From positions 56,544,001 to 56,608,000 of the forward strand of contig NC_043002.1 of assembly GCF_006345805.1 (NCBI RefSeq): a stretch of DNA of 64,000 bases. The letters run 5' to 3'. This DNA comes from Octopus sinensis. Taxonomy: Eukaryota. Positions 2,481 to 58,779 of this stretch are shown here, one piece after another; position 1 is the stretch's first letter; the number at the start of each line of letters is the position of its first letter. Below the pieces are notes generated by a model. It searched no databases. It saw only the letters and a program-made list of their open reading frames with translations, and was not told where the DNA came from. Position numbers and translations under genes: made by a program.

Positions 2481-3290
2481 AATTTGAAGTATTATCCAAC
2501 TATAAAAATGTAATAGGATTTATTTAAAACACTGAATAGGTATGAGGGTCCAGTAGAGTAGAATAAGGATGGAAGGGGTCCATAGGCAAGAAAAAAAAAA
2601 AAAGGTCAACAACCACTGCTTTGTATGGTCATACAACTTGCTAGAAATAGCAACTAAATCTCCTTCAGATCACTCTACTGCATTTAAAAATAAGAAGTAC
2701 GCACTAGATAATGTGGTTCGATGTACACTATGTTTGAGAGCAAACAGATTGGCCTTAGAATGACTTTGATACAAATCTATTGGTATTGTGAGTTACTTGT
2801 TCTGAAGCATTCAAATTTAGTCATCTGCAGTTCAGAAGCTGGAAGAGGAATGGCACCATTAACAGAAGTACTATTTTTGATGGTCTATAAGACACATGAG
2901 TGCATAGGATGCACCCTAGCCTAGGCTATACTTTTGTAAAATAAATTACCATAATATAATGTTTTAATTCCTCCTCTTACCTGTATAACTTTATGTTATT
3001 ACTGGTAATTATAAGCAATTTATTGCATCCACATTCGTTATTAACACACCCTAGGTGCTATAGTTCTATACTTAAGAGATGAGGAATTATGTACATTATT
3101 TATCTATGACCTTTGAGTTTCATAAACTTCTTAATCTGGCATGTCTTCACCATTTCAGATTCTTTCATGTATAACTTTTCTAGATCTTGTTAGATTCTCT
3201 TTCTATCATCATCTCTGGTTATTTTCCTAAGTAAATAATATACCCTAGGTGATTGTTCACCACTGGCAGCACACATTTTGTAAACATACA

Positions 3291-3399: not shown

Positions 3400-3429
3400 T
3401 ATGTCACTCACTTCAATACAAACATATAT

Positions 3430-3965
3430 ATATATATAAATGGAGTTAAACACAGGTGTTATTCAAATTCTTTTACTTCCGATACATGTTTCGAAGATAT
3501 CACTGGTATTATTCCAAACCAATAAAATGGTGTAAAACAATGTAATCTTCTCTTCTGGGAAATGAAGAAATAAAACTCGTGAATAAGAAATTTTAACAGA
3601 AAATGATGGATATGTATAATCACCATACATATCCATCATTTTCTGTTAAAATGTCTTATTGACGAGTTTCATTTCTTCACTTCCCTGAAGAGAAGATTAC
3701 ATTGTTTTACACCATTTTATTCCTTTGGAATAATACCAGTGATATCTTCAAAACATGTATTGGAAGTAAAAGAAATTGAATAACACCTGCTTTTAACCCC
3801 ATTTATATATTTGTATATATATTATACAAAATATTTCATGTAAACCTGAAGTTTCTAACTTTAAAAGCAAGGACTTACAACCTTTTTACTTGTGTGATTT
3901 TTTGCTACCTGGGTAACTATTTATCTATTTTTTCTGTGTTAATTGTCAACAAGGGAAAAATACAC
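3430..3965. mobile_element. Fold-back element with an HHR-like motif in each arm (Penelope-like terminal-repeat derivative)
   Basis: About 185-bp inverted arms 3430-3810 centred near 3621; the tail 3884-3965 recurs at 59160-59240. Confidence 0.75.
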
Positions 3966-21439: not shown

Positions 21440-21990
21440 ACAGTTCTATATTTAAGAGATGAGGAATTATGTACATTATTTATATTTGACAGATATTTGT
21501 CCTCATCTTGTTTGTTGTTAAATCAACTTTTCAGCTGTTATACCCTTCAGCCTTAATCAGGTATTAAGGAAGGATAGGAAAATATTAGATTTATAAACCC
21601 TAAAATTCACCCCATAACTGCCCATGGGCATATGGCATAGTGGTTAAGAGCACAGGCTACTGACCCCAAGATTCCGAGTTTGATTCCAAGCAGTGACCTG
21701 AATGATAATAATAACATCGAAAAATTCCTTACACATGCACATATCCACACATCACATGTACACATCCACATGTACACATCCACATGTCAAGGTCACCAGC
21801 CCCTATCCACACACACACACTTACACACTCTCACATATGCATGCGCATCTTCGTTTTGGGATCACCAATACCCAAGTTCGAAATTTCCCCAAGACACCTG
21901 ATGAAAGCTGGAAGGTATATCAACCAAAACGTTGTGTTAACAACAAAGAGGAGGACAAATGGACAAATATCCGTCAAATGTAAATAATGA
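21440..21990 (+). mobile_element. tRNA-head plus HHR element with an inverted partial copy upstream
   Basis: Inverted 3' part at 21440-21565; tRNA-like head at 21626-21695; unrelated insert at 21730-21870; HHR at 21893-21938 with GAAA changed to AAAA. Confidence 0.75.
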
Positions 21991-22309
21991 TTTAATATTT
22001 GTTGATTGTTAAACTCTGAAGACTGTTTCTCTGATCTTTTATTTCTACACAGTTTATGATGTAATTCTTACTTAAACTCATTTATGTTCCATGAAAATAC
22101 TGAAAAATATATTCCATGTTCCAGAGACATAAGAATGGCTGCGTGGTAAGAAGCTTGCTCCCCAACCAGATGGTTCTGAGTTCAGTTCCACTGCATGGCT
22201 GTTTGAACAAGTGTCTTCTACTGTAGCCTCAGGTTGACTGAAGCCTTGTGAGTGGATTTGGTAGACGGAAACTGAAAGAAGCCTGTTGTATATATATATA
22301 AATATACAT

Positions 22310-22705
22310 ATCATGCCGCACTACACCACACCACCCTGACCACTTCCCAGCACCCTCACCGTCATGCACACATCCACACATACATTCATGTGTCAAGGTC
22401 ACCAGCCCCTATCCACACTTACACACACGTGTGCCTTCATTTTGGGATTGCCAATACTTTATTATCTCCCCTTCTTCTTAGTTCTCCAGTCTACCTCTGT
22501 CCAGCCAGCCACCATGATTGATCGCTAGCTGCTAAAGCTTTTTTTATTCTCTCTCTGTTTATTTTCTCGTGTTCCTTTCTGTTGAAGAGTGTAGGCTTGA
22601 AATGTAAAAGACTTTCTCACCTTCCCAAGCATTAAACTAATACACCTGTTTGTTGTTTATACACCTGTCTTCGTCTTTTGCTTTTCTGTAAATTCCAACT
22701 ATATA
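22310..22705 (+). mobile_element. Penelope-like tail fragment inserted in the (TA)n of a SINE A copy
   Basis: Splits the SINE at 22135-22930; homologous inverted copy at 37500-37700; degenerate HHR-like TTGAAGAGTGTAGGCTTGAAATGTA. Confidence 0.55.
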
Positions 22706-24463
22706 TATGAGTGTGTGTGTATGTAATTGTGTGTCTGTTTGTTCCCTCCCACCATCGCCTGACAACTGATGTTGTTGTGTTTACATTTCTGTAACTTAGA
22801 ACTTTGGCAAAAGAGACCGATAGCATAAGTACTAGGCTTACAAAGAATAAGTCCTGGGGTCAACTTGTTTGACTAAAGGCATGGCTCCATCATAGCCGCA
22901 GTCAGATGACTGAAACAAGCAAAAGAAAAAAAAAAGAATAAAAAAATAAAGGAACAAAAGAACGATATTCTTGAAATAAATGCTAGATATCATCATTTGT
23001 ATTTCTTCATTTACTACAATAATTAGATGGTGACGACAGCGAAGGGAAATGCATGTAATTAGTGTTCTTCTTAATCAGTTAATCCTTTCAAGCCGATGAC
23101 AGTTGACAGAAGTTACAACATATAATTAGAGGCAATGTGTTTAACCCTTTCAAGTCAATGGATCCTAAAAGCAGCATGTCATCATCATCATCATTTTACA
23201 TCCTCTTTTCCATGCTTGCATGGGTCAGATGGAATTTGTTAAGGAACATCTTTTACAGCTACACACCCTCCATGTCACTAATCCTCACTTGTTTCGGACT
23301 AAGGTAATATTTCCTTATAGCTGGACATCTTTCTATGGCCTACGAGAAATGAAAGACTCTGCTTGTGTGACACTCATTTATGACTACTGCAGAATATCAA
23401 GACAAGGGACACACACACATTTCATTTGAAGACATGACTATGTTGCAGTTGTCATATTTTTGTATCAGTTTCTTGAAGTTAGTTTGGAACAACAAACTTC
23501 CTGAATCCATATTCAATGTTTCCAGACCATCACACTCTCATTTTCAAGAATTGAAATAAATTGGATGTCTGCATCATTTCTTATACACTGGTCAATTTTT
23601 CTTCTTCTTTTGCTTGTTTCACTCATTAGATTGCAGCCATGCTGGGGCACCACTGTAAGGAATTTTAGTTGAATGGATCAACCCTAGTTCTTACGATTTT
23701 TATATCTTAAGCCTAATACTTATTCTATTGGTGTCTTTTGCTGAACTGCTAAGTTACGGGGACATAAACACACCAACATCAGTTGTCTACCATATCTACT
23801 CACAAGGCTTTTGTTGGCTTGAGGCTACAGAAGAAGACACTTGCCCAAGGTATCATACAGTGCGCCGGAGCCTGGAACCTTGTGGTTGGGAAGCAAGCTT
23901 CTTAGCACACAGTAAGTTTTTTTTAGCCCTTTGGCTTCCATATGAGCAGTCTTATGTTAATTTATTTTGTTGTGGTTAAATTTATGTAGGTTTCATCACC
24001 TAAACTTTATTTATTGCTAGGCTTTTGTGTCAGTAGCCATAAGTTAAATTTTTTCATGTGTGTATGTGTTGTTTGCATATTTATTTTGTTATTGTGTTGT
24101 GATATGACTATCAGTTCCAGGATGAAACTTCTATTTTTGTGAGGAACTTAAAGAGCACACAAGTTTTATCCTGTAATATTTTTCTATCAAACTTTGTGGT
24201 GCATGGTAGAATGTATTGCAATTTCTCCTTTTAAATGCATTGTGAGCCGATAAGAGTGTTGTACTATCTCATCTAGGTGATCCCATAGGATGCCCCAAGA
24301 CTGTTTCCACATGTTTTCCCCATTCATTTTGATCTTCCATAATGTCCTCAGCTCCTGTACCCCTTTCATACCAGTATTCTCCAGCAAGTTGTCGATATTG
24401 TTAGTCTTCTTCTCCTGGTTCTTCTTTCCACTGGTTGCCAGAGCACTAGCTTGTTAGCAATTT

Positions 24464-24616
24464 TAGGAGATGAGGAATTATTTACATTTGACGGATATTT
24501 GTCCTCATCTTGTTTGTTGTTAACACAACGTTTCGGTTGATATACCCTCCAGCCTTCATCAGGTGTCTTGGGGAAATTTCAAACCTGGGTTCTCTCATTC
24601 CTAAGATATTTTTTGA

Positions 24617-24655
<39 letters not shown>

Positions 24656-24910
24656 TATTATTCAGTTACTGCTTGGAATTGAACTTAGAATCTTGGGGTT
24701 AGTAGCCCGTGCCCTTAACCACTATGAAAGATGCCCAAGGCATACGACAGTGACCTGAATAATAATAAAATTAATAATAACATCAAAAAATACCTTAGGA
24801 ATGAGAACCCAGGTGCGAAATTTCTCCAACATACCTGATGAAGGCTGGAGAGTATATCAGCTGAAACATGTTAACAAACAAGATGAGGATAAATATCCGT
24901 CAAATGTAAA
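24464..24910 (-). mobile_element. tRNA-head plus HHR element, fold-back form
   Basis: Full minus copy at 24464-24736 (tRNA-like head 24668-24736, (AAT)n, HHR) and inverted headless copy at 24748-24910. Confidence 0.8.
24522..24567 (-). ncRNA. Minimal type I hammerhead ribozyme motif
   Basis: GACAC-CUGAUGA-A-GGCUG..CAACC-GAAA-CG-UU-GUGUU: stem I GACAC/GUGUU, intact core, palindromic ACGU stem III, GUU cleavage triplet. Confidence 0.75.
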
Positions 24911-26308
24911 TTTCCTCGGTGTGTCTGATGCAGTATCCAGCTAGCCTCATCCTTCTATGCTGTATCTTCAATGTTACTTTTAGTAGTCCCTGGTATAAGT
25001 TGGCATTTGTCGTATGACTCTTCCAGGAGACATTGAATGCCATTCTAAGCATCCTCGAATAACAACTGTCCAACTGCTTCTTCAATGCTTTAGTATGTCT
25101 AATATAACAGCTTTACAGTCAAATTTATAAGTTATGTTGGTTATTAGTAGCCTGTTCTCAAATTTACATGTTCATTGTGCATTATACTGATATGCAGGTT
25201 TTTGGTTTCATAGTATTTTACTAGTTTTAGCTTATGGTTGGGAACGATGCATTTGGTGTTCCATTTTATGAAGTTTTTGATGAGGTATTCATCTGTTCAA
25301 TAGTTTTTACGCATTTAATTTATTTAATAAGTTTCACATTTGATGTATTCTTGTATTGTTTTATTCTTTTACTTGTTGCAGTCATTTGACTGTGGCCATG
25401 CTGGAGCACTGCCTTTAGTCAAAGAAATCAACCCCAGGACTTATTCTTTGTAAGCCTAGTCCTCATTCTATCAGTCTCTTTTGCTGAACCACTGGATTAT
25501 GGGGACATAAACACAACAGTCGTCAAGCGATGGTGGTGGGGACAAACACAGACACACATATATGTGACGGGCTTTTTTCAGTTTCTGTCTACCAAATCCA
25601 CTCCCAAGGCTTTGGTTAATGGTGATGATGATGATGGTATATTAGTGTTTTTTTCTAATCAGTTATATCTGTTCTAATGAATCAATGACCTTGTGCTAAG
25701 AAATCATTAATTATGTTCCTTTATATTTGACTAAGGTCAACTTTACCTTTCATTCTCCTGGAGCAATGATATAGCAAGTGGCAACCAAGTGGATAGGATT
25801 CCAACCAACTCCTAAACTTATGGCTTGTGCTTATCTGAGAAATCACCATTGTCATTTAACATCCACTTTCCCATGCTTGCATGTGTCAGATGAAATTTGT
25901 TGAGGCAGATTGTCTACAGCCGGATGCCCTTCCTATCACCAACCTTCACCCGTTTCCCCATGACCAGACACATTTTGGAATACTGGAAATGAAGGACACT
26001 GCTTTCATGACAGGGACACTTGTTAACAACTAATACATGATATCAAGGCCAGGAGACAATACACACACACACACACATGATGGGCTCTTTCGGTTTCCAT
26101 CTACCAAATCCACTTATAAAGCACTGGTTGGCCAGAGGCTATAGTAGAACACATTTTTTCAAGGTGCACTGCTGTGGGACTGAACCTAAAAAACTGTGGA
26201 TGGGAAGCAAACTTTCTACCACACTGCCACGCCTGTACTTATTATTCATAGTAATAATTACTCGCAGCTACTTAATTTCTAGTGAAACCATCCATCAACA
26301 AGTCTTAC

Positions 26309-26342
26309 CGTTGACATTTTCCTTGTGTACATAATTAGACAT
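26309..26342 (-). CDS. THOC7: Candidate first coding exon of THOC7 (MSNYVHKENVN-D)
   Basis: ATG, 11 codons and G followed by a strong donor G|GTAAGA. Phase 1 fits the 16488 acceptor, and it lies in apparently unique sequence. No homology support. Confidence 0.35.
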
Positions 26343-27694
26343 GAAAAGTTTTAATTCCAAGCATGCTGAAGCAGATAAGATGAGGATATCATGATTAATT
26401 GACTTCTAAAAAGGAGTTTATTCCAAACATAATGAATGATGAAAGTGAAATTAAAGCCAACACACATTCACACTCAAAAATGTACTAAGTGGTTAGTGGT
26501 TAGTGTATTTGGTGCATGATCCCAAGGTCGCGAGTTCGATTCCTGGTAGCATATTGTGTCCTTGTGTGAAGTGTTTATTTCACGTTGCTCCAGACCACTC
26601 AGCTGGCAAAAGTGAGTGGTACCTGTGTGTCACGTTGAATCTCCCTGAGAACTACATTAAGGGTACGTGTGTCTGTGGAGTGCTCAGCCACTTGCATGTT
26701 AATCTCATGAGCAGGCTGTTCTGTTGATTGTATGAGCTGGAGCCCTCATCATTGTAAACACCAGAGTGCCAGTGTATATGTGTATCTAACTATATTGATA
26801 GATATGTTGTATCTTGAGAGGGTCATTCTCTCAATAAGAAACACACACACTGGTTGTATTTCACTTCTGTTACTACTACTATCATCATCATCATAATTAT
26901 TAATATTATCATTTTCATTTTCATTATTAGTCAAGTAGTTAACCATTTAACCTATCAACCAATTAATTGTTCAGCCAATTAATCAATCAGCTAGGTTCAT
27001 TAGAGTCCTTCCATCGTCATTCATGACCCCATCAATTAGATGCTCACGCTCTTCCGGACACTGATGAACCTAGCTGATTGACCGAGCAATTAATCAAATC
27101 ATCGATTAGTTAATCAGTCAGCTTGTTGGCGAAGAAATAATAAAAGTGAAGTGAAGCGGAACAAGAGATAAATATGCCTTTTAAGTTTCAGCAGTAGGTC
27201 TCTTTTTCTTTGTGTCTCTCAAATTGGTTCTCATAAAGTGTAATAGGGTTTAATTTTGCTACTTTGGCAATATGGCTAACTACACACACACACACACACA
27301 CACACAATGTACAGAAGCACATCTCAGCTTTCATTTCCATTTTAACTCTTTTGTTACCAAATCTCTGTATACACTACCTTTATGTCAATTAATTTTGGAA
27401 ATAATGAAGAATTTGATAAAATACCTGTCATTATTAATTGGGTGATTAAGGTGACAAACTGGCAGAATTGTTAGCTTGCTGGGCAAAATGCTTACTGGCA
27501 TTTCGTCTGTATTTATGTTTTGAGTTCAAATTATGCTGAAGTCGACTTTGCCTTTCATCCTTGTGGGGTCAATAAAATAAGTACCGGGTGAACGGGTCAA
27601 TAAAATAAGTACCAGGTGAACATCAGGGTCGATGTAGTCAACTTATTCACTCCCATGAAATTACTGGCTTTGTACTGAAATTTGAAACTATTAT

Positions 27695-28182
27695 TTGGCT
27701 GGGTGAAGTTCAGGGAAAGTGGAACGTTATTATATGGGAAAAGGTTCTCATTGAAGATGAAAGGAAAGGTCTGTAGGAGTTTTGTGAGAGCTGCAAAGCT
27801 GTATGGGAGTGAGAGAAATGTGTGGTGTGAGGCTGTATGATAAGAGGAGGACTGAGGACTTGATGGTGATGCTGGGGCTGGAGGAATCAGTGTAACGGCT
27901 GGCAAGGGCAAATTTAGTGCAATGGTATGGGCATATGTTGAAGAGGGATTAGGAGCATGTTCTGAAGAGGGTGCTGGAGTTTGAGGTAAATGGACCGAGA
28001 AAAACGTGGAGGGGACAGGTGGAGGAGGCGATTGGGAAAGTTGGCTTGAGAAAGGAGGACGCCCAAAACTGGGCAAAATGGTGTGAGGGCGGTTGCTATG
28101 GCATTGAGGTAGATGTGGCCACTCCTGTAAATGGTGACAAAACCTGGATTCAAAATGATGGATGATGATGATGATGATGATA
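27695..28182 (+). pseudogene. RTE LINE 3' fragment, second family
   Basis: GKRFSLKMKGKVCRSFVRAAKLYGSE..WYGHMLKR..GPRKTWRGQVEE followed by a (GAT)n tail. Confidence 0.8.
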
Positions 28183-29117
28183 TTAATCTGGAGTTTGGAA
28201 CATAAATTAATTTGAAATTTTGATTGGATTTAGATCCCTTTAGATCACTTCAATAGGAGAAGTTTGAGTCATAGAAACAAACGCAGTCTCAGGTAGGTAT
28301 GTATCAAAAGGGTCAACTATTTTGGTACCAACACACCTGACACTGCTTTGGGTCTAAGTTTTCAAGGAATCTAAATATTTTCCATCAAAATTTCATGTTA
28401 ATTTCTGTTCCAAGTATCAGCTAGATAATGACAAATTTATTTTACTAAATTTTCAAAATAAATTAAACCAGAGGCAGCAAATTCCAACAAAAATATGATA
28501 ATGAAAGAGTTAAACAGTTGCAATACATAGCCCTTCATTGCTAATTTTAAATCCATAGAAGGAGATATACATCAAGAGCAACCACAATAAAAGATAGCTT
28601 GATGCATAATAAATAGTTGAAGTGGAAATGAAGAAAAGCGTTACACTAATATTGTTGTTGCTTCACATATATTGAAAAAATTATTTAAAAGGCTGTTGCT
28701 GATCAGGATGATGATGAAGGTGATGAGAGTGATAATGGAGACAAAAACAATGATGATAATGTTGATAACATCAATGATAGTGATGTTGATAATGTGTTGT
28801 TATTTTTGTTGAACTTTAAAAGCTCATCAATATTGGATTGTATATAATACACTTACACAGTGTTCTGGGGTTGTAGTTTTTGTTTTCTTTACCAGTTATT
28901 ATCTCTATTATATATCTGATAAAGAAGAAAAATATGGCTTCCTTTCCTTTAAAAAGATAAAAACCCATGAAATAAATGAATAGTTTACTTGCTTTTACTT
29001 CATTCAATTTTCCTCTTACAGAGTTAACCATGAATGAATTAACGCCCCCCTCCATTCCTTTCAACAACAAAGGTTTTTATCTTTTCACAATGAAACACAC
29101 TCACACATATTACATTT

Positions 29118-29158
<41 letters not shown>

Positions 29159-29457
29159 TTAAATAAATCTATATATATATTTTCAATACTAATAAAGGGT
29201 AAAATTAATTAATTAATTAATAATTTTACCAAGTAGTTCAGTATGTTAAAATAACCTTTATCGGTAACCTTATACAAAAATTTTATAATTATAAGCATAA
29301 TTAAAATTAAGGTTCAGCAAATTGCTTTACCACATACTGAAATTTAGAAATAGCAGTTAAATGCTATTCCTCTACTATAAGATATCTCCCAGATAGCAAT
29401 ACTCTTAATTCACGTATGTAAAGAGAAAACAATAACAAATCCATCTGACTTTGATCA

Positions 29458-29532
29458 ACCACATACGAGTTTCTGAATTAAAGAGATGTAAAATTTTAAT
29501 TTTTACTCACTTATTTCCTTCTTCAGTGTAGT
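29458..29532 (-). ncRNA. Hammerhead ribozyme motif with long AU-rich stem II
   Basis: ACUACA-CUGAAGA-[GGAAAUAAGUGAGUAAAA..UUUUACAUCUCUUUAAUUC]-GAAA-CUCG-UA-UGUGGU; stem I ACUACA/UGUGGU. Confidence 0.6.
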
Positions 29533-29714
29533 ATTTCAATTGTAAATCTTAGAGTACTAATAATTAAATACGTATTTGACCAAGTGACTTTGAATAGCTA
29601 ATATCCCAAAACCAGCACTTCCGAATTTATACAGACCAGTGAGAACTCGCATTCTTCCCCAATCACCCACATGCGTTATGAGTACGTGAATATAAGAATA
29701 TTGCTGTCTAGGAG

Positions 29715-29747
<33 letters not shown>

Positions 29748-29749
29748 CT

Positions 29750-29878
29750 TTATCAAAAAGCAGCAAAAATATCACAAAAACTGTTACTAAGAGTTTAACG
29801 TTCCTGTCCGTCCAACGAAAGTGAACGTGAAACTCTGAGTAACAGCTTTTGTGACATTTTTGCTGCCTTTTAATAAAG
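29750..29878. repeat. Hairpin with degenerate HHR-like 3' arm
   Basis: GCAGCAAAAATATCACAAAAACTGTTACTAAGAGTTTAACGTTC pairs with GAACGTGAAACTCTGAGTAACAGCTTTTGTGACATTTTTGCTGC. Confidence 0.7.
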
Positions 29879-29963
29879 TGTATTACTCTACTTCTGGTAT
29901 TCGAGTACTATTTTTTCCACTTTGTTTCACATTTATGTGCTTCCTCTGGTATGTGTATATATA

Positions 29964-30477
29964 TACAGGGTGTCCATAAAGTCTCATTACAATTTAAAAA
30001 AATTATTACAAAGGCAGTTGATGAGATATTTTAACCAGATTTGTTTTATTTTAATAATTGTTTATTAATTTTTTTATTGATATTAAATTTTTGTGTTTCA
30101 GATACTCTGTTGATGGAAGGGAACTGATTCACTGAACCCCTATAAAATGGTTACTCCTCATGAAAAGCACAATGTGCGTCCTAGTTTATTGAGACAAAAT
30201 TGGATGTTCAGACTCAACGAAACTACAGAACTAAGTATGGAAGAGATCCACCATCGCGTTCTTCAATTCGTGCATGTGTGGTGTGGAATCATATGCAATT
30301 GAATAATTGGTCCATTTTTCTTCAATGAAGCAACAATTACTGCAGATGTTTACCTCGACCTTCTGACTGAATATGTGGCACCACAACTGATTGATTTACA
30401 ACCAACCATCATTTTCCAGCAAGATGGTGCACCACCATATTGGGGATGGCATGTTCGTCATTTCCTCAATCAAACCC
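29964..30477 (+). mobile_element. Tc1/mariner-superfamily transposon relic (DD41D/rosa-like), internally deleted
   Basis: TA-CAGGGTGTCC TIR. From 30147: FIETKLDVQTQRNYRTKYGRDPPSRSSIRA joined to VWCGIIC..IIGPFFFNEATITADVYLDLLTEYVAPQL..IIFQQDGAPPYW. Confidence 0.8.
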
Positions 30478-33400
30478 TGCCGTACTTTTTCACCACAACT
30501 TTCTCTCACTCTTTCCTCCTGTTTCTGTTATACCTGTAATTCAAAGGGCCAGCCTTGTCACACTCTGTGTCACGCTGAATCTCCCCAAGACTTATGTTAA
30601 GGGTACATGTATTTCTGGAGTACTCAGCCACTTGCACGTTAATTTCATGAGCAGGTTGTTCCATTGATTGGATCAACTGGAACCCTCGTTGTCATAACTG
30701 ACGGAGTGTCACGTTATCTATCTATCTATCTATATATATATATTTCGTTTTGGGATTTGGTTTGCAAGATTCTTAATGTGAGTTCATGTGTTGAAGTGGA
30801 AATTTTACCAGCAAAAAAAAAACAAAACAAAAGACAAAACAACTATAGTCAATTGGACGTACACAGTGAATATATTAAGATTGACCACTCAAAGAACCTT
30901 TTAGATGGAAAAATAGGTGTGGAAATATGATGTTCCAAGCATGGCTCTTTGTTGGCTAGATGAAAAAAATGACAAGAGAAGAGATAAAAAAAGCATCTTA
31001 GGCAAGTGTCTTCTACTATAGCCTTGGGCCAACCAAAGCCTTGTGAGTGGATTTGGTATACAGAAAATGAACGAAGCCCATCATGTGCACGTACACACAC
31101 ACACAGGCATAAAATCTATGTGTGTGTGCATGTGTTCGTTCCACACCACTGCTTGACAACTGGTGTTTGTCTACTCACGTTTCCATAACTTAACAGTTTG
31201 GCAAAAGGGATTGATGGAGTAAGTACCAGACATTGAAAATAAAAAAATAAGCATAGGGATTGATAGATTTGACTAAAAATTCAAGGCAGTGCTTCAAGCT
31301 GGCCACTGTCTTTTATAAAGTAAAAGATAAAAGAAAAAATAACAGAAGGCGGGGGGGGGGGGTGCACATTAAAGGGCCATGAGAAGGAAGTGTACATTGC
31401 AGAATTGGCCTAGGGAATAGGATACCCTGGTGCTGGCACTGTCACCATCACCGTTTTCACATCTGATTTTCCATGATTGTATGGGTTAGACAGAATTTGC
31501 TGAGGCAGATTTTCTAAAGCAGGACACCATTTCAGTCAGTAACCATCATCTGTTTCTAAGTAAGATTATATTTACCCACAGCCGAACCTCTTTCACAGAA
31601 GGTTGGAAGCAAAGAATACCACTTGTATGATGTTTGTTTATAACTATTGCATGATATTACCACCACACACAATACAAATATTATCATCACACACACACAT
31701 ACACAATGGGCTGCTTTCAGTTTCCATCTACCAAATCCACTCACAAGCCTTTGGTTGATCCAGGTCTCTAATAGAAGACATTTACTATGGTGCCTTGCTA
31801 CGAGCTTGAACCTGAAACTACATGGTTGATAAGTAAACTTCTTAACCACACTGCAATTATTCTTTAAGAATATATTACTATTTGTTGTTAGTTTCTCTGC
31901 ATTAGTTTTCTCAAAGATGTTTCAAAACAACCATTGGCTAAGAATTATCTCCAACTGCAGAATAGCAAATACATTGTTTCTATGGATGTTCGACATCAAC
32001 TTTTATGGAATTTTGTCAACAGTAGTTCTTACATTATTTATACATATTGCAGAAATATGAAGATAGATACACTTTATGACAGATTAGCAAAGTTGTCATT
32101 GCACAGAAACAGCCATATTAAATGTAATTAAGAACACTAAGTTTCACTGGAGATTTTCATTTTATTTTAATATTAAATCATCACTGTCATCATCATCATT
32201 ATCATTTTACCAGTCATTTTCCCATGTTTACATGGGTCAAATGTAATTTGTTGAGGCAAATTTTCTATGGTCAGATAGCCTTCTTATTGCCAACCCTTAC
32301 CTGTTACCAAACAAGGTAATTTTCCCCATGGCCAGACATGATTTTTCTTCATGAAAGACTGGAAATGAATGATGCTCATTTACAACCCTCATATGGTGTC
32401 AAGACGAAGCCCATCCCACCTCACATATATATACATATATACATAAATGAATGTGCATACACATGCACAGACAAATGGCTTCTTTGAGTTTACATCAACT
32501 AAATTTATTCAAAAGGCTTTGGTCAATCTGAAGCTATAGTAGCAGGAACACGCCCAAGGTGGCACCAAAGTCAAAGTCATATGGTTGGGAAGCAAGCTTT
32601 TTATGACCTAAACAGCCTTATCGTTTCAGATTTAAATACAAAAACAGAAAATTTAATTTTAAATATTTTCTTTAGTTCACTTGAATTTTTCCTAACTGGC
32701 ACTCCACTGGTTATGACAATGAATATTTCAGTTGCTTTGATCAACAGAACAGCCTGCTTGTGAGATTAACATGCAAGTTGCTGAGTACTCCACACACACA
32801 TGTACCCTTAATGTAGTTCTCATGGAGATTCAGTATGATACAGAATGTGACACAGCTGGCCCCTTTCAATTTGCAGGTACAACTCATTTTTGCCAGGTGA
32901 GTGGATTTGGAGCAATGTGCAATAAAGTGTCTTGCTCAAGGACATAACATGCTGCCGGGAATTGAACTCACAACCTTATGATCATGAACTGAATACCCCT
33001 AAATACGTACCTTCTTACTCGAGTACTTATTTTAGTTTCATAATTATTTTTATTGATTTCTATTTTCAATGATATATATAAGACTTGGCAAGTAAAATGA
33101 GATCACAGCTGTGGCCGATACCAGAGTTGCATAACCAGCCCATTTAAAAGTACCCTTGAATCGTCGGGCAATATGCTGCACTAGAGAAGACCTACAAATT
33201 TGAAATCAAAATGGAAATTGTAGTTGTGGTCAATGCCAGTGTCACCTGACTGGCTCCCCATGCCAGTGACACATAAAAAGCACCATCTGAACGTTGCTGA
33301 TGCCAGTGCCACCTGACTGGCTTCCATACTGGCAGCACATAAGCACCCATTACACTCTTGGAGTGGTTGGCATTAGGAAGGGCATCCAGCTGTAGAAACA

Positions 33401-35134
33401 TTGCAAGATCAGATTGGAACCCAGTGCAGCCTCCTGGCTCACCAGTCCTCAGTCAAAACGTCCAGCCCATGCCAGCATGGAAAGCAGATGTTAAACGACG
33501 ATGATGATGATATATGTGTGCTAATGTTTTGCTCAGAGGAATAATGAAAGCAATGGCACTAGTGGTGGTGGTAGTTATAGTAGAACTGTCAATATAAGCA
33601 AAATGGCTGAATGGTTAAGAAGTCTGTTTCTTGCTCATGAGGGTCTGAGTTCAATTCCCTTGCATGGCATCACCAGCAAGCATCTTTTAGTTTTGCGGAG
33701 GGCAAGACTACTTCTATAATGCTGAGGTCATGAAAAAATGCACCGAGTGCACTCTGTAAGGTAGTTGGCATCCAAATATAGAAACCAAACCAAAAGTGAA
33801 ACACTGGAGCAAGATGTATTCCTGCAAACTGTCAGGTCCTTTTGAACCATCACACTCACATCAGCATGAAAAGTGCATATATGATGATGGTGATAGTGGT
33901 GATGATTGTGCATTATGGCTGCAGTCAGATAATACTAAACGAATGTGAATGCTGCTTAACCCTTCAGCACTTAGACCAGCCATATCTGGCCTCTCATACT
34001 TACCCTACAATGTCATTCTAAAAATAAACAATCATATCACTGAAATCTCAAAGCTACAAGGTAATGCCTGATTAATTTGAACAATGTGAATAAATGAATA
34101 AGCATTACATACAGTAATTTGAATGCTAAACGATTAATTTTTTAATGAGGCACAGAGTTAAATTTTGTACAATTGGAGAAGTGAGTGAATCCCAACCACC
34201 ACAAGACTATTTTTAGCAAATTTGGATCAGTATCATGGCACTCCGTCAGTTATGACGACGAGGGTTCCAGTTGATCAGATTAATGGAACAGCCTGCTTAT
34301 GAAATGAACATGCAAGTAGCTGAGCACTCCACAGACATGTGTACCCTAAACGTAGTTCTCGGGGAAATTCAGCATGACACAGAGTGTGACAAGGCTGGCC
34401 CTCTGAAATACAGGTACAACAGAAACAGGAAGATGAAAGAGTACAGCAGGGTTCTCCACCACCCCCTGCTGGAGCCTCGTGGAGCTTTATGTGTTTTCAC
34501 TCAATATACACTTACAACGCCTGGTCTGAGAATCGAAACTGCAATCCCATGACTGCGAGTCTGCTGCCCTAACCCTACAATAATACTGATACAATTTATT
34601 AGTCTTTCTCCCAACTGACTAAAATTATTTCACTGAGAGATGGCCAGAGTATTACATATTGTACGTGCGTGTGTGTGTGCACATATGTAACATGTAATAC
34701 AAATAAACTAATCACAATGGAACTTTGCAATAAGTAATCTCCAATATTGTGTGCGTGTGCATGCAGTTATCGGTGCAGAGTTCAGTCTCACTGTGTGGCT
34801 CTTTGGGTAAGTGACTTCTACTCTAGCACCAGGCTGAACAAAACTCTGTGAGTGGATTTGGTAAATGGAAACTGAAAGAAACCCGCATTTATATATATTT
34901 ATCAGTTTGTGTGTGTGTACCCTTGTCAAGAATCATTGTCATACAAGTGATGTTTGTTCCCAGTCTTCCATGGAAAACTTGTTTGGGTATGGGGAATTTA
35001 TTTACCTCGTCTATGAAATAGGTGAGGGTTGGTGACAGGAAGAGGACCCAGCCATAGAAAATCTGCTTCAATCAATTCTTTCTGACCCATGCAAGCATGG
35101 AAAACTAGATGTTAAAAATATATAGATACATATA

Positions 35135-35352
35135 AGGTGGTGAGCTGGCAGAAATGTTAGGACGCCAGGCAAAATGCTTAGCGATATTTTGACTGTCTTT
35201 ACATTTTGAGTTCAAATTCTGCCGAGGTTGACTTTGCCTTTCATCCTTTCGGGGTCGATAAATTTAGTAACTGTTATGTACTGGAGTTTAACTAATCAAC
35301 TGGTCCCCTCCCCATAAAAATTTTGGGCTTTGTGCCTAGAGTAGAAAAGAAT
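35135..35352 (+). mobile_element. SINE family C (Meta/MESC/RUDI-like central domain)
   Basis: GAGCTGGCAGAA..TTAG A-box, GAGTTCAAATTC B-box, GACTTTGCCTTTCATCCTTTCGGGGTCGATAAA core. Copies at 12250-12480, 18312-18740, 27448-27690, 48075-48270, 52785-53435, 60178-60380, 61010-61540. Confidence 0.75.
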
Positions 35353-38300
35353 ATATACATATATAATACACACACACACGTTCTTATACATTGCTTGTCT
35401 GTAACAGAGACATTTACGAGATAACCTGTTTCCATTTAATCTTTGGTCAAATACCACATAAAACTTAATCCTCAGTAGTCATGGTCAATTCATTAATCGT
35501 TATTTATTTCAGTCCTTTGACTGTGGCCATACTGGGCACTTTAGTTGAACAATTCAATCCCAGTACTTGTGGTTTTAAGTGTGGGTCTTATTTTATTGGT
35601 CTCCTGTGTTCAACTGCTGAGTCAAGGGGATGTAAACACACTAACATCGGTTTTCAAGTGGTGGTGGGGGAGAAAGACACACATGATAGGCTCTTTTCAA
35701 TTTCTGTTTACCAAATTTATTCCCAAGGCATTGGTCGACCCAAGTCTATAGTAGAAGATACTTGCCCAAGGTTCCACGTAGTGGGACCGAACCCGGAACC
35801 ATGTGGTTGGGAAGCAAACTTCTTGCCACACAGCCATGCCTGCACCTATATAATCAGTAATCATCATCATTGTAATAAATATTTTGCACAACATAAGCAG
35901 TCAATGCATTGCTAATTGTCATCCATCCTTTTTTCTATTCCCTCTGCATCTTTCAGAATGTCAAAACAGTGTTGGCACTTTCTCCGTAGCATTTCGGAAA
36001 ATGAAATTATCATATAAGCTAATCATCATTTTACATATCAAGAAATAAAGAATAAATAAAGGTATTAGTGATAAGATAATGCATTAACCCTTTTGACACC
36101 AACCCATCAGGGACTGTCACTACGTCTATGAGTCTATGATACGAACTTCCTATTTTAAAGGGATTTAGCTTAAAGCATCCCATATAAATTTCATGTTAAT
36201 TTATGCTCCAAAGAACAGCTTAATAATGACAAAATTATTTTACTAAATTTATCTTCCTGTTCCACTGCATCATCACTGTTTTAATGTCTAGTTTTCTATG
36301 CTTCCATAGATCAGATGAAGTTTATCAAGACACATTTTCTACAGCTGGATGCCCTTCCTGTTGAGAACCCTCACCTGTTTCCCAGTAAGGTTAATATTTC
36401 TCCAGGGTTAAACATATTTTTGATGGAAGGCTGGAAACAAACAAAAGTGTTTGTGTGACTGATGCATATTTATCACCATCACATGATATCAAGACAAGGC
36501 TACACGTAAATACACGTTTCTGTGTGTGAGTGTATAGCCAGCCACACTGTAAAGTGGTTGGTGTTAGGAAGGGCATCCAGCTGTAAAAATCCTGCCACAA
36601 CAGTCACAGACGTCTGGTGCAAGCTTCTGCCTGACTGGCTCCTGTCAAACTGTCCCACCCATGCCAGCATGGAAGGCAGATGTTAAATGACGAAGATGAT
36701 GATGATGATATATATATATATTGGCGTTGCTTGGGATTAAAATGGTATAATTTTTTAATTGTTTTACTTGTTTCAGTCATTTGTCTGTGGCAATGTTGGA
36801 GGACCGCCTTTAGTCGAACAAATCAACATCAGGATTTATTCTTTGTAAGCCCAGTACTTATTCTAATCATGTCTTTTGCCAAACTGCTAAGTTATGGGAA
36901 CATAAAAACAGCAACATTGGTTGTGAAGCAATGGTGGGTGCACAAACACAGACACACGCACAGATATATATATACACACATATATATCTACATCTATATC
37001 TATCTATCTATATATATATATATACATGATGATGATGATGATGAAATCCACTCACAAAGCTTTGGTCAGCCCAAAGATTTTGAATATATCCAATATCTTA
37101 AAAAATAAATGAAATCAGAACAGTGCAACAGAAGTATGGTAGCAAAAGGATTAAAACGTGGTGTTACCAACTGATCTATGTCACAGCTTCAGGAAATTAG
37201 CATGAAGAATGCGTTCCTACCACACATACTTCACACCTAACATAACTTTTTCGATATGGTAACAGAACTTCTTAAGTGCCTCATAATTACTTTCTTTTAC
37301 TTGTTTCAGACGCTGGACTATGGCCATGCTGGGGCACAGCCTTGAAGGGATTTTAGTGAATAAACTGACCCCAGTACTTCTTATTCTTTTAAGCCTGGTA
37401 TCAGCCTTTTTTTTTCTGAACTAAGTTATAGGGACATAACAAACCAGCACCAGTTATCAAGTGAAGGTGGAGGAACATGAAGAACAAACACACACACACA
37501 TAGTTGAAATTTATAGAAAAACAAAAGATGAAGACTGGTGTAGGAAAAACAAGCAAGTGTATTAGTTTGACACTTGGGAAAAATGGAAAAGTCTTTTACA
37601 TTTCAAGCTTATGCTCTTCAACAGAAAGGAACAAGAGGAAATAAATAGAGAGAGAATGAAAAATAAAACATATAGAGATCAGCAATCCAGCATGGCAAGA
37701 GACTCTTTTGTTGAAGATGACATATGAGTGTTCAGTTTTTGCCAAATGACTTGCACAAATGGTTTGTTTATAATGATCCAATGTATGTGCTGCATATTAG
37801 CTCACTCACTCTAATATGAGAAATGATTTTTGAATATTTATGAATGTTTTCAACCTCCAGTTCCACTCAGTACTGATTCTGGCCAATGTTTTCTTGCACT
37901 GTGCACTTTAAAACGATGGAAGAAGCTTTGTAGGTTAAAGAAGAAAAAAAAATTGGAAATTACAATCTCCACTTCCTTTATTTTGAAATAGAAAATGAAA
38001 CAATTTAAAAACAATAGTGAAATTAAAAAAAAAAAAAAAGGTTTACATAAACTCCACCGCCCGCAAAATACTAACATTTTGGCTCCCCCCATGCTGCAAT
38101 TAAAAAAAAAACATCATAGTTTTAAAATGTGGACAATAAGAATCTGTGATTTGCTTCTGTTTATAATTTCAAAATAATTTTTAGATGAAAAGATGATTCA
38201 AGGGAGATTTAGCTGTTATTTCTAGGACATTGCACAACCACCTGGTACTTTCCTTGTTTTTTTTGTCCCTCTGACATGTACAGAGGTTTCCCTCCCCCAC

Positions 38301-39227
38301 CATAAACACAAAGGAGATGACAGAGGACCAAGATAAGTAGTGCATTGCTGTACTTGAGAAGAACTGCCTACAACAGAATTGAGATCCTAAAATCAAAGTG
38401 CCACGTAAAAAGCACAGGAATGGTTCCACTTAAAAAAAGCACCCAGTACACACTGTGAAGTGGTTGGCATTAGGAAGGGCATCCAGCTGTAGAAACCAGG
38501 CCAAAACAGATATGGGAACCAGGTGTGGCACCTAACCATGCCAGTTCTTGTTAAACCATTCAACCCATGGCAGTATGGAAAATGGACATTAAACAATGAT
38601 GATGATATATATACAATGGGCTTCTACACAGTTACCAAATTCACTTCAAAGCATTGATTGGCCAAGGACTACAAAAGAAGACACTCCCCCAAAGTGCTGA
38701 TCAGTGGGACTGAACCTGAAATCAGGGGTTTGCAAAGCAAGCTTCTTAACCACACAATGATGCCTGTGCTTTGGGGTAACTATTTTTGCTACCATAATAG
38801 TTACAGTGAAAGACATTTGTGAGGAAGGCAGACCAAGTTCAACCCAAGAGCAAGTGGTAAACCTGAATCTGAGAATGTTGAACTTCACGGATGAGAGAAG
38901 ATCAGATGAAGATAAATGGAATCATATCGAGTTGCTGACAAGAACTACACATGGTTTTCTCATAAAACGGGCAAAAAATAATGATTATGATGCTGGTGAT
39001 GCTGTAATTGCTTATCAATAATTGTGAAGGCATGTGGCATAATGGTTAGGTATTCAGCTCAAGATGATAAGGTCATGAGTTTCGGTTCCTGGGGTTGTGT
39101 CCTTAAGCAAGATATTTTATTTCACTTTGCTTCAGTCCACTCAGCTGGCAAAAAATGTGCTGTACATGTAATTGAAAGGGGCCAGCCTTGTCACATTCTG
39201 TGTTATGTTCAATCTCCCTGAGAATTA

Positions 39228-39525
39228 CCCTCCAGCCTTCATAAGGTGTCTTGGGAAAATTTCAAACCTGGGTTCTCATTCCTAAGGTATTTTTTGATAT
39301 TATTATTATTTTTATTATTATCATTATTATGCAAAGCAAAAGTCAAACATAAAATAATTATAATAACAATAATAATAACATCGAAAAATACCATAGGAAT
39401 GAGAATCCAGGTTTGAAATTTCCCCAAGACACCTGATGAAGGCTGGAGGGTATATCAACCGAAATGTGTTAACAACAAAGAAGATGAGGACAAATATCTG
39501 TCAAATGTAAATAATGTAAATAATT
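39228..39525. mobile_element. Headless fold-back copy of the HHR element
   Basis: Inverted arms 39228-39330 and 39355-39525; CTGATGA..GAAA near 39433-39464 with stem III deleted. Confidence 0.75.
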
Positions 39526-56200: not shown

Positions 56201-58779
56201 GTTCTGGGTTCAGTCCCACTGCGTGGCACCTTGGGTAAGTGTCTTCTATTATAGCCCCAGGTTGACCAAAGCCTTGTGAGTGGATTTTGTGGATGGAAAC
56301 TGAAAGAATCCCGTCGTATATATATGTATTTGTGTGTTTCTGTTTGTCCCCCCACTATCGCTTGACATCCGATGTTGGTGTGTTTAAATCCCTGTAACTT
56401 AGCAGTTCGGCAAAAGAGACTGATAGAATAAGTGCCAGGCTTACAAAGAATGATTTGTTCGACTAAAGGCGGTGCTCCAGCACAGCCGCAGTCAAACGAT
56501 TGAAACAAGTAAAAGAATAAAAGAATGAATTTATATATATTATTTATTAAGTTTAAAGATATTTTCCTTCAAATTTTTTATTTTATTTTGGTTATTAGAT
56601 TAACAAAGGAAATTCATTTACTCATGTAATCGCAAATATTATATGGACGGTTACTAGTCACTGGAACCAAGTACGAATAATAACAATAATATTAATTAGA
56701 GAAGCTATTTAGCTGTAGTAGCATTTCTGTACAATACGTTATTTAGGTTAAACAGCCTAAAGCAAACGGAAGGCTGAAGGACAGCTAAAGTTTCTTGACA
56801 TGTAAAGTGAATAAATAAACAATAATAAATAAAAACAGAAGATTAATACGAAAATGAAGGAAAATTTCAAAGGAACAAACAAAACTGTAATCTATAGTAG
56901 TTAGACTTATACATTAAAAAAATGTGTTGTGTGTGTGGAGGGTATGGCTGTGTGTGTGTGTGTATACGAACATGCAGGCGGATTTTGACATAAGTGGATG
57001 TAAATGTCATTTATAAAGTCTACAAGTAAATATTTATTTACGGATAGTGTTATATATGTTGTAAAACCACCATCACAGGTTTAATGATCCCTCTTACCCC
57101 CCTGCCATGCTTGCATGGGTTAGACAAAGTTCACTGAAGTAAAACTTCTGCAGTTGGTTGCCCTTCCCGCTGCTGCCATCACTCACCTGTTTCTAAGCAA
57201 GGTAATATTTCCCCCATGGCCAGACACATGCTTTCATAGAATTCTGGAAATGAAAGCCACTGCTTGTATGACAGTGACACTCATTTACAGCTATCACATC
57301 ATGTCAAAAAAAAGGAGACATAAGCATACAAAAACTCACACAGTCATATATATATATATATATATACGTATGTATATATATATGAACGTGGCCGATGCAA
57401 GCGCCGCCTTCACTGGCTTCTGTGCTGATGGCACGTAAAAAGCACCACTACACTCATGGAGTGGTTGGCATTAGGAAGGGCATCCAGCTGTAGAAACACT
57501 GCCAGATCAGACTGGAGCCTGGTGCAGCCCCCAGGCTTCCCAGACCCTGGTCGAACCGTCCAACCCGTGCTAGCATGGAAAACAGATGTTAAACGATGAT
57601 GATGATGATGATATATATATGTATATGTATATGTATGTGTGTGTTGTGTATATATATATATATATATATATATACATTTACTGCCTAGGTAATTTGCATC
57701 ACCATCCTCCTCTTCATCATTTGATGCCTGCTTTCCATGCTGGCATGGGTTGGACAATTTGTCAGGAGATAGCACCAGGCTCCTCTTTGTTTTGACAAAG
57801 TTTCTCCAGCAGAATGCCCTTCCTAATGCCAACCACTTTACAGTGTATACTGGGTACTTTTATGTGGCACCAGCACTGGTGATCTCACAAAACAAGGGCC
57901 TCTCAGCTGAGATAGAGAGAGAGAGAGAGAGAATAGGACTGAGAGATTAGAGCACACAAAAATGATCTGATGGCTTCTTTCAGTTTTCATCTACTAAACC
58001 CTTTGATCCACTTGGGACTATAGTAGAGGACACTTTGAATCGAGTGCCATGGAAAATGGTATGTATGTTGAAAAGCAAATTCCTGTGCTTGTAACTGATA
58101 GAAGGGCTGAGAATTTCATGCATGGTACTCATTAAATGCATAAAACTCTCGACCCTTGAGTCATCGGGTAACTAGTGAAGATTAACTCTCTAGCATTCAA
58201 ATTACTCTGTCAAATGTAATGCTTATTTATTCACATCATTATCATCATTGTTTAATGTCTGTTTTCCATACTGAAGTCTGGAGAAGAGGGAAGAGTCCAT
58301 GGGAAAAAAAGACAAAACTGAGAACTTATTGGCAAAATGACAAAAAAAAGAAACCCAATATAGGAGACCTCTGGCTGAATGCACAACCATGTGTGAATCA
58401 ATGGAAAGAGCTGGTTCATGTATCCACAGTCCCTGACTCTCAGCAATGACAATGGGAATAGGGAAGGTTTGAATAAATAGAGTTAAGAGTTTGATTAAAA
58501 CAACAGTACATCCAAGTAAATTATGGACTTGCTGTTAGTCAAAAGAAATCAATAAGGCTTCTGTTGTTAAACAGCAACAATCAACAGGAGGTGAGAAGAT
58601 CCATGTTATATGGTCAGTCAGCTGCTGGCCATTATTTAACTGACAACAACTAAACTACAATCTTGACATACAAAACATCTCACTTTCAGCAAACTGTATT
58701 TCTGCTTGTTTTTTAACATCCATTTTTTTGCTTTGCAAATGTGTAACAATTCAATATTGTTGTTGTTTGTACTGTTAAA

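What the first reader, a model, noticed from the sequence alone, without database searches (positions are those of the whole stretch)
21440..39525. Multi-copy element joining a tRNA-type Pol III head to a hammerhead ribozyme (candidate Penelope-dependent SINE or retrozyme)
Seen: three loci (21440-21990, 24464-24910, 39228-39525) and an end fragment near 3060 share one unit of about 290 nt: GGGCAT..TAGTGGTTAAG (A box), a CTACTAA loop, GAGTT(C)GATTCC (B box), (AAT)n, a linker, GACAC CTGATGA..GAAA CG TT GTGTT, then a tail. Every locus also has an inverted partial copy. Known: minimal HHRs with palindromic stem III and inverted terminal repeats are typical of Penelope-like elements, and Schistosoma SMalpha is a precedent for a tRNA-related repeat with an HHR. 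Inference: a Pol III-transcribed, self-cleaving non-autonomous retroelement mobilised by a Penelope RT. I cannot tell whether it is already annotated in cephalopods.
Basis: partly seen in the sequence, partly recalled or inferred. Interest (0 to 1): 0.75.

Follow-up and report, generated by a model that had tools for sequence, protein, structure and literature searches.

The report
Penelope retrotransposon with tRNA-derived promoter
The repeat is not a stand-alone SINE but the end repeat of an abundant protein-coding Penelope-type jumping gene that carries a tRNA-derived sequence and a hammerhead-ribozyme motif; most copies holding that sequence begin at its first bases, likely because RNA polymerase III starts their RNA there, which would be unusual for a protein-coding element.

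Summary
The repeat is real (about 23,000 loci, from 8 in 940 kb sampled at fixed positions), but it is not a separate SINE. Head, (TAA)n, hammerhead and tail form the terminal repeat (pLTR) of an autonomous Penelope/Poseidon-type element. The head follows the stop codon of an RT/GIY-YIG ORF in 29 of 30 ORF-selected loci. The 818-codon ORF starts in the linker and reads through hammerhead and tail. Window locus 1 carries the ORF's last codons; locus 3 has no head; one window copy keeps an intact core. Two-armed insertions carry the Penelope tail on one arm only (32 of 33). The unusual part: the head is tRNA-derived, with A and B boxes in tRNA register. 17 of 24 copies reaching it stop there, with no subfamily-specific alleles. 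The 2.77-kb unit has no sense-strand TTTT (relatives 3.2/kb). Pol III transcription is therefore likely for the short copies, possibly for the whole element. Transcription and cleavage are unshown; one RNA-seq run shows passenger reads only. The scan reported this family before on other DNA. I found no description in print; Repbase/Dfam were not searchable.

The parts
3062..3102 (-). Long-form 3' tail end of the element
   Evidence: 98% to family tail
3103..3246 (-). Piece of the N-terminal part of the ORF, joined directly to the tail (internal deletion or template jump); one in-frame stop
   Evidence: 92% to family ORF
21441..21562 (-). Locus 1 inverted arm: damaged hammerhead plus long tail
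21560..21596 (+). Last 12 codons and stop codon of the RT/GIY-YIG ORF
   Evidence: 93% over 143 nt to the ORF-end/spacer/head junction; same junction in 29 of 30 ORF-selected loci
21597..21625 (+). 29-nt spacer between ORF stop and head; its end forms a short palindrome with the first bases of the head
21626..21702 (+). tRNA-derived head; A box 21633-21643, B box 21678-21687; predicted Pol III internal promoter
21703..21722 (+). Short (TAA)n run and start of the linker
21723..21865 (+). Unrelated CA-rich insertion that interrupts the linker
   Evidence: partly repeated at 22363-22428
21870..21989 (+). Locus 1 body: linker end, hammerhead core 21898-21933 with G12 changed to A, short-form 3' end
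24462..24617 (-). Locus 2 minus arm body: linker, intact minimal type I hammerhead (core 24527-24562; predicted cut after 24527), tail reaching near the long end with an internal deletion
24618..24660 (-). (TAA)n run of the minus arm
24661..24736 (-). tRNA-derived head of the minus arm; A box damaged, B box 24675-24684; the arm begins exactly at head position 1
24747..24911 (+). Locus 2 plus arm: last bases of the head, (TAA)n, body with damaged hammerhead, short-form end
39226..39298 (-). Locus 3 minus arm: linker and 5' half of the hammerhead (core mutated)
39299..39378 (.). Back-to-back (TAA)n runs joining the two arms; no head
39379..39524 (+). Locus 3 plus arm: linker, hammerhead lacking 3 nt of stem III, short-form end

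Best explanation
These loci are short, decayed, two-armed insertions of the terminal repeat (pLTR) of a protein-coding Penelope/Poseidon-type retrotransposon, and the tRNA-derived head inside that repeat likely acts as an RNA polymerase III promoter that sets the 5' end of most copied RNAs. Shown: ORF stop, 29-nt spacer, tRNA-derived head, (TAA)n, then the ORF start, which overlaps hammerhead and tail; two fixed 3' ends; 5' ends piled at the head; no TTTT on the sense strand. Inferred: Pol III starts a few bases upstream of the head and meets no terminator. The element's RT/GIY-YIG protein binds the RNA near the tail, nicks both DNA strands and starts cDNA inside the RNA at the two sites, as shown in vitro for Anolis PAc. 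Because those sites lie only about 300 nt from the Pol III start, priming at the 5'-proximal site runs off at the head and gives the SINE-like 300-bp copy, while priming at a downstream pLTR gives the ORF-bearing truncated copies. The two cDNAs join through microhomology, often the palindrome at the head start. The hammerhead is predicted to cut only as a dimer or with protein help, and is probably dispensable for insertion.
For: Structure: head follows the ORF end in 29 of 30 ORF-selected loci (about 26 independent); body-ORF-head-body order in L173 and L171; majority reading of 27 copies gives 818 codons with one stop in a thinly covered part, and that stop is absent in a second reading from 27 5' copies. 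RT: Pfam RVT_1 E 1.5e-9 and 3.2e-10, weak telomerase RT hits in PDB. EN: aligns with a PF01541-bearing relative, 32% over 553 aa. 3' ends bimodal: 61 of 126 at body 175-183, 57 at 140-159; 32 of 33 inverted pairs have one long and one short arm, the pattern described in PMC8557442. Head: A box at +8, B box at +53, both in 1 of 200,000 shuffles; 49 of 73 identical to a genomic tRNA-Arg(TCT), z 7.3; 68-74% to SINE heads of this genome. 5' ends: of 28 head-selected insertions 17 end at -7..+10, 4 at +14..+30, 7 run into the ORF; of 23 head-bearing loci among 30 body-selected, 18 end at -17..+8; background loss in the ORF is about 1 per 320-350 nt (binomial P 3e-17). Exact 19-mer counts: 5401 in the head, 756 at -65, 581 at -390, 308 at -506. 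Many head-start junctions do not use the palindrome. Three insertions among 30 ORF-start loci begin at the head and read on into the ORF (L326/L332, L334, L336). TTTT: 0 in the 2.77-kb majority unit versus 9-10 in each of five other Penelope ORFs of this genome at equal T content; P 0.045 (own synonymous codons), 0.01 (their codon usage); 3.2 per kb in 58 relatives of similar T content. Hammerhead fold: 16 of 22 distinct core motifs in 80 related loci have stem II of 4 bp or more, with 11 different 5' starts; shuffles mean 0.6, max 5.
Against: No direct evidence of Pol III transcription. One unstranded RNA-seq run (6% read) gave equal depth on both strands, 79-82% of reads running into unrelated flank, depth following copy number, and no pile-up of starts or ends at the head or the cut site; such a library could not be expected to show them. 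5' ends also cluster, more weakly, at -415..-467 in the ORF (about 11 of 28), so hotspots exist without a tRNA box. Lack of TTTT is not unique: 1 of 36 relatives with 1.5 kb or more also has none, and the five in-genome controls are from another clade and not independent of each other. A Pol III RNA is uncapped and the hammerhead cut site lies inside the ORF, so how the protein is made is unexplained. Head-start copies are slightly less diverged in the body (4.0% vs 5.9%, P 0.02), which could hint at later amplification from short masters. The cloverleaf is degenerate; Rfam and ARAGORN do not call it. Only 15 of 98 copies keep the full hammerhead pattern. The monomer does not fold as a hammerhead in silico (z -0.22). 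No intact ORF was found; the longest open stretch is 551 aa.
Confidence: 0.7

Rival explanations
1. Ordinary Pol II-transcribed Penelope whose pLTR picked up a tRNA/SINE head as an inert passenger; 5' ends pile up there because the cDNA folds back on, or the two arms anneal at, the palindrome spanning the spacer-head junction.
For: The palindrome is real and several junctions use it. A second cluster of 5' ends lies at -415..-467. D. virilis Penelope has a LINE-like internal promoter (PMC2377424, abstract). RNA-seq shows only passenger reads.
Against: Many head-start copies join unique flank or the inverted tail without the palindrome. The hairpin is only 5 bp with a 2-nt loop. An RT blocked by tRNA structure should stop at its 3' side, not its 5' end. 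A and B boxes are perfect in the family majority, and TTTT is absent.
Confidence: 0.15
2. Two-tier system: the coding element is made by Pol II, while solo pLTR copies are transcribed by Pol III and have become a true non-autonomous, Penelope-dependent SINE amplifying from its own master copies (closest to the first reader's idea).
For: Most copies are short and start at the head. Head-start copies are slightly younger in the body (P 0.02). A capped RNA would solve translation. pLTR-derived non-autonomous elements are known (bioRxiv 10.64898/2026.07.22.740005).
Against: No diagnostic allele: best P 0.005 of 732 tests in the body and 0.07 of 308 in the head, for 66 ORF-linked versus 27 head-start arms. 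Some head-start copies continue into the ORF. TTTT is absent from the ORF as well.
Confidence: 0.12
3. 5' ends come from processing of a longer RNA at the tRNA-like structure (RNase P-type cut at position 1), not from a promoter.
For: Several copies begin exactly at head position 1 (L263, L273, L276, L224, L137, window locus 2).
Against: Other junctions keep 2-7 spacer bases upstream of position 1, so some templates reached beyond the cut. The cloverleaf is degenerate.
Confidence: 0.03

Closest known systems
Penelope/Poseidon PLEs, e.g. PAc (Poseidon_Ac) of Anolis carolinensis (PMC11167929; parts 1-3 of 4 read)
   Same: One RT + GIY-YIG ORF starting at or near the hammerhead in the pLTR; partial tandems; two internal RT start sites giving an optional tail. 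By eye, the N-terminal LTFLxRCRD motif encoded by the RNA printed in that paper recurs here, and the long 3' end falls within about one codon of PAc's start site.
   Different: The PAc pLTR as printed is not described as tRNA-derived. This family has a tRNA head with A/B boxes, (TAA)n, a 5'-end pile-up at the head and no sense-strand TTTT. Of 36 related loci with 300 nt or more after the ORF, 1 matched the A+B pattern (not examined further), versus 11 of 30 decayed copies of this family.
Minimal hammerheads of metazoan PLEs (Cervera and de la Pena 2014, PMC4209133; parts 1-2 of 4 read)
   Same: Type I; stem I 5 bp; extra base between positions 9 and 10.1; G10.1-C11.1; palindromic 15.2-16.2 with no loop 3.
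   Different: Nothing essential; activity untested here.
tRNA-derived SINEs (SINE2), including octopus SINEs
   Same: tRNA head in register, 68-74% like SINE heads in this genome; most copies short and starting at the head.
   Different: The head is built into the coding element; no separate lineage; fixed two-site 3' ends and two-armed insertions instead of a LINE-type tail. Ohshima and Okada 1994 (octopus OK/OR SINEs) is not held, so overlap with those families is unchecked.
TRIMp3: Cassandra, Helenus, Ajax (Kojima 2024, PMC10886601; abstract and passages)
   Same: A small-RNA-derived Pol III promoter inside the terminal repeat of a retroelement, proposed to arise by SINE insertion.
   Different: Those are non-coding LTR elements; this is a coding Penelope with pseudo-LTRs and a ribozyme motif.
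Non-LTR retrozymes and Schistosoma SMalpha (bioRxiv 10.64898/2026.07.22.740005, parts 1-3 of 5; PMC8490949, passages)
   Same: Type I hammerhead in a short dispersed repeat tied to PLE pLTRs; one locus (L024) has three head-to-tail 150-nt body units.
   Different: Here the repeat is the end of its own coding element and is mostly head-to-head, not tandem; the tRNA link of SMalpha is recalled, the passages read say only 'SINE-like'.

Membership tests
EN+ Penelope-like element | Single ORF with a PLE-type RT | tested here: met
   818-codon majority ORF; RVT_1 hits; 74 homologues at E<=1e-20
EN+ Penelope-like element | C-terminal GIY-YIG endonuclease with CCHH residues | tested here: met
   Aligns to the C-terminus of PF01541-annotated P0048; Cys and His positions present. 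The Pfam GIY-YIG profile itself did not score.
EN+ Penelope-like element | pLTR formed by partial tandem; inverted 5'-truncated arm | tested here: met
EN+ Penelope-like element | 30-40-nt tail on one end only | tested here: met
   32 of 33 inverted pairs
EN+ Penelope-like element | Minimal hammerhead motif in the pLTR | tested here: met
   Sequence and stems; no Rfam match
EN+ Penelope-like element | Hammerhead self-cleavage | not testable with these tools
   Needs an in vitro assay; no end pile-up in one unstranded run
Penelope/Poseidon clade | No zinc-finger linker between RT and EN; ORF start overlapping the hammerhead | tested here: met
   By inspection; the other PLE families here carry a Cys-rich linker
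Penelope/Poseidon clade | RT phylogeny with named references | not tested
   No named reference set was available; no tree built
tRNA-derived SINE (SINE2) | tRNA-derived head with A and B boxes at the 5' end | tested here: met
tRNA-derived SINE (SINE2) | Non-autonomous lineage distinct from its partner, sharing only the 3' tail | tested here: not met
   Head is part of the coding element; no diagnostic alleles
tRNA-derived SINE (SINE2) | Pol III transcription | not testable with these tools
   Indirect only
tRNA-derived SINE (SINE2) | Target-site duplications | tested here: inconclusive
   Flanks of four window loci read by eye, none evident; not tested systematically
Non-LTR retrozyme | Head-to-tail tandem units with a hammerhead in each; non-coding family | tested here: not met
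   Tandem body units noted only in L024; the family is coding
Non-LTR retrozyme | Circular RNA monomers | not testable with these tools
   No suitable library

The most novel reading that the evidence does not exclude
An autonomous, protein-coding retrotransposon that captured a tRNA/SINE head and is transcribed end to end by RNA polymerase III, having lost all TTTT terminators from a 2.5-kb ORF, and that makes tens of thousands of SINE-like copies of its own 5' tip in cis because Penelope RT starts inside the RNA. It would blur the LINE/SINE divide and need cap-independent translation.
Probability: 0.35. Interest if true: 0.85.

Novelty: new variant of a known kind. Interest (0 to 1): 0.6.

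Why it matters
Coding retrotransposons are taken to be Pol II transcripts and SINEs Pol III transcripts (PMC5786205, passages). A Penelope with a built-in Pol III promoter would be a coding element that behaves as its own SINE, and would show a route by which SINE-like repeats arise from Penelope internal initiation. The family's tens of thousands of two-armed insertions are also an in-genome record of the two-site, two-strand priming seen in vitro for PAc. For annotation, such repeats are easily filed as SINEs in octopus genomes.

Tried and rejected
Rfam scans found no hammerhead or tRNA. ARAGORN default: none on the head; relaxed thresholds gave noise everywhere. A Pfam GIY-YIG genome search returned other PLE families with unrelated ends, rejected as partners; the true ORF came from flanks of body-selected loci. 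A first subfamily test was biased by loci chosen for body similarity, including an apparent excess of a 3-nt hammerhead deletion; it was redone without those sets. A search with a foreign relative returned this family in all 16 of 58 hits that were fetched, so there is no clade-matched control inside the genome. Sequencing runs: no RNA holder listed on record; contig runs were laid but show presence only. Single-strand folding does not give the hammerhead. The look-up of earlier findings by sequence gave two unrelated LINEs. No structure or complex prediction was run; not needed.
Full report
OBSERVATION. The three loci and the fragment near 3060 are copies of one repeat. Its order is tRNA-like head (77 nt), (TAA)n, linker, hammerhead motif, tail. 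Every locus has two arms back to back. Locus 3 has no head; locus 1 is interrupted by a 143-nt insertion; only the minus arm of locus 2 keeps a full core. Ninety-four 10-kb stretches taken at fixed positions (940 kb) held 8 loci, one of them weak, about 23,000 genome-wide with wide error.

FINDING THE PARTNER. A GIY-YIG search returned intact Penelope ORFs of other families whose ends did not match. Among 30 loci picked only by hammerhead and tail, three had conserved sequence upstream of the head, and one had an RT hit there. Searching with that upstream DNA gave 30 loci, 29 of them with the head right after an ORF stop (about 26 independent, since one is the query and some are the same insertion on several contigs). 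The spacer is 29 nt. Near-complete copies read body, ORF, head, body. The majority reading of 27 copies is an 818-codon frame that starts at an ATG in the linker and runs through hammerhead and tail; the 9-nt repeat in the tail keeps the frame. Its one stop lay where 3-4 copies were aligned and is absent from a second reading of 27 5' copies. Real copies score as RVT_1, hit telomerase RT weakly and align end to end with a GIY-YIG-bearing relative, although the Pfam GIY-YIG profile did not score. Copies are about 4-6% diverged outside CpG, and the longest open stretch found was 551 aa.

PENELOPE HALLMARKS. 3' ends fall in two groups, 61 of 126 at body 175-183 and 57 at 140-159, with 8 elsewhere. 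In 32 of 33 inverted pairs one arm is long and the other short. This is the one-sided tail of PLEs (PMC8557442, passages), explained for Anolis PAc by RT starting at two sites inside the RNA and extending both nicked strands (PMC11167929, parts 1-3 of 4). By eye the long end here lies within about one codon of PAc's site, measured from a shared N-terminal motif. The lack of a Cys-rich RT-EN linker places it with Penelope/Poseidon; no tree with named references was built.

HAMMERHEAD. The motif fits the minimal PLE hammerhead (PMC4209133, parts 1-2 of 4): stem I 5 bp, one extra base before stem II, G10.1-C11.1, stem II 6 bp, palindromic stem III with no loop. Copies of one family cannot show covariation; 15 of 98 keep the full pattern. 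Across 80 related loci from metagenome contigs, 16 of 22 distinct core motifs have a stem II of 4 bp or more, with 11 different starts, against 0.6 in shuffles. Rfam does not detect it. Cleavage is untested; in PAc it needed protein and was not needed for insertion.

THE HEAD. In the family majority the A box starts at base 8 and the B box at base 53, the tRNA register; both boxes appear in 1 of 200,000 shuffles. It is 49 of 73 identical to a genomic tRNA-Arg(TCT), the best of 16 tRNA loci compared, which cover only six isotypes, and 68-74% like the heads of two SINE families of this genome. It does not occur as a free SINE: 27 of 28 head-selected insertions carry the body (30 loci less 2 duplicates). 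Head plus (TAA)n looks like a captured SINE or tRNA retrocopy (inference). Among relatives, 1 of 36 loci with enough downstream DNA matched the A+B pattern, against 11 of 30 decayed copies of this family.

WHERE COPIES BEGIN. Of 28 head-selected insertions, 4 end at +14..+30, 17 at -7..+10 and 7 run into the ORF. Of 30 body-selected loci, 7 lack the head, 2 end within it, 18 end at -17..+8 and 3 reach the ORF (some negative values are inflated by the palindrome). Copies that pass the head lose about 1 end per 320-350 nt, so the pile-up is far from chance (P 3e-17). Exact 19-mer counts drop 7-fold over about 95 nt (5401 to 756) and then slowly (581, 308); the motifs survive mutation unequally (7, 13, 18 and 15 of 26), which makes the true drop larger. 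Against a unique promoter reading, about 11 of 28 ORF-end copies stop at -415..-467. A palindrome at the head start accounts for some head-to-head junctions, but many head-start copies join flank or tail without it.

SINE OR NOT. With biased sets left out, 66 ORF-linked and 27 head-start arms differ at no position after allowing for 308 and 732 tests; head-start bodies are slightly less diverged (4.0% vs 5.9%, P 0.02). Three insertions among 30 ORF-start loci begin at the head and continue into the ORF. The short copies thus look like products of the same masters.

POL III FOR THE WHOLE ELEMENT? This idea came from earlier notes of the scan; the test is mine. The 2.77-kb majority unit has no run of four T on the sense strand, against 9-10 in five other Penelope ORFs here with the same T content (P 0.045 and 0.01 by codon shuffles). 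Relatives of similar T content have 3.2 per kb (58 of the 75 loci with 900 nt or more matched; 5 of 80 dropped), but 1 of 36 long ones also has none, so the empirical rarity is about 3%, not the Poisson 0.0004. Decayed real copies have 0.2-0.7 per kb. Suggestive, not decisive.

RNA. One raw RNA-seq run of a coded organism (unstranded, 6% read) gave 10,605 and 9,133 reads on two copies, both strands alike, 79-82% running into flank, depth tracking copy number, and no start or end pile-up at head or cut site. This fits passenger transcription and says little about Pol III.

MECHANISM. Pol III likely starts just upstream of the head. The element's protein primes inside the RNA about 300 nt downstream, on both nicked strands, and runs off at the RNA's 5' end, giving two-armed 300-bp copies; priming at a downstream pLTR gives ORF-bearing copies. 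How an uncapped RNA with a ribozyme site inside its ORF is translated is open. Confidence: pLTR of an autonomous Penelope about 0.97; Pol III start behind the short copies about 0.7; Pol III for the coding RNA about 0.35.

PRIOR KNOWLEDGE. Nine library searches listed no paper describing a tRNA-derived promoter in a PLE pLTR or this family. Seen: the three papers above; bioRxiv 10.64898/2026.07.22.740005 parts 1-3 of 5 (its supplements are closed); passages of PMC13282606 with a term search of its one supplement, PMC5786205, PMC8490949, PMC8967140, PMC4758252; abstract and passages of PMC10886601; abstract of PMC2377424. Repbase, Dfam, deposited repeat libraries and Ohshima and Okada 1994 could not be seen, so prior annotation remains possible. 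The scan noted this family at least six times on other DNA; those are unchecked AI notes, not independent support.

VERDICT. A new variant of a known kind. The SINE or retrozyme label fails; the tRNA-derived promoter inside a coding Penelope is the real point of interest.

Noticed in passing
ORF positions -415..-467 from the head (L299, L302, L305, L306, L307, L310, L311, L313, L315, L317, L132): A second, weaker cluster of 5' ends inside the GIY-YIG region; could be a second start site or an RT pause.
   Followed up: partly
L024:1527-1969: Three head-to-tail 150-nt units of the body, each with a hammerhead motif, next to an inverted full arm; retrozyme-like array born from this pLTR.
   Followed up: no
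L326 / L332 (G000:C4, about 154.069-154.071 Mb): Two-armed insertion starting at the head in which both arms continue 300-370 nt into the ORF, so 3' ends other than the two usual sites occur.
   Followed up: partly
L091-L110: At least three other Penelope families with RT + GIY-YIG ORFs of 762-883 aa and a Cys-rich linker (Neptune-like); one has an overlapping upstream ORF of about 479 aa with no Pfam match (L095:674-2113).
   Followed up: partly
L074, L079, L093, L101, L108, L109: Hammerhead-like cores with other palindromic stem III sequences beside those families.
   Followed up: no
window 3424-3818: 395-bp near-perfect inverted repeat (91% self-complementary), MITE-like.
   Followed up: no
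window 57422-57876 and 1-302 / 60653-60976: A diverged inverted arrangement of SINE copies, and a 320-bp dispersed repeat present twice in opposite orientation.
   Followed up: no
whole window, e.g. 2060-2482, 22130-22300, 26500-26620, 39030-39227: Dense tRNA-derived SINEs of several families; one abuts locus 3 and can be mistaken for its head.
   Followed up: partly
L371: A related Penelope (48% identity) with no TTTT in 1993 nt of ORF but a T-rich UTR and no tRNA box; a counter-example for the TTTT argument.
   Followed up: yes
L247: Cluster of seven tRNA-Cys genes, four of them spaced about 156 bp apart.
   Followed up: no
L021:300-1725: A 986-bp tandem duplication that includes one element copy and its flank; a local duplication, not part of the element.
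   Followed up: yes
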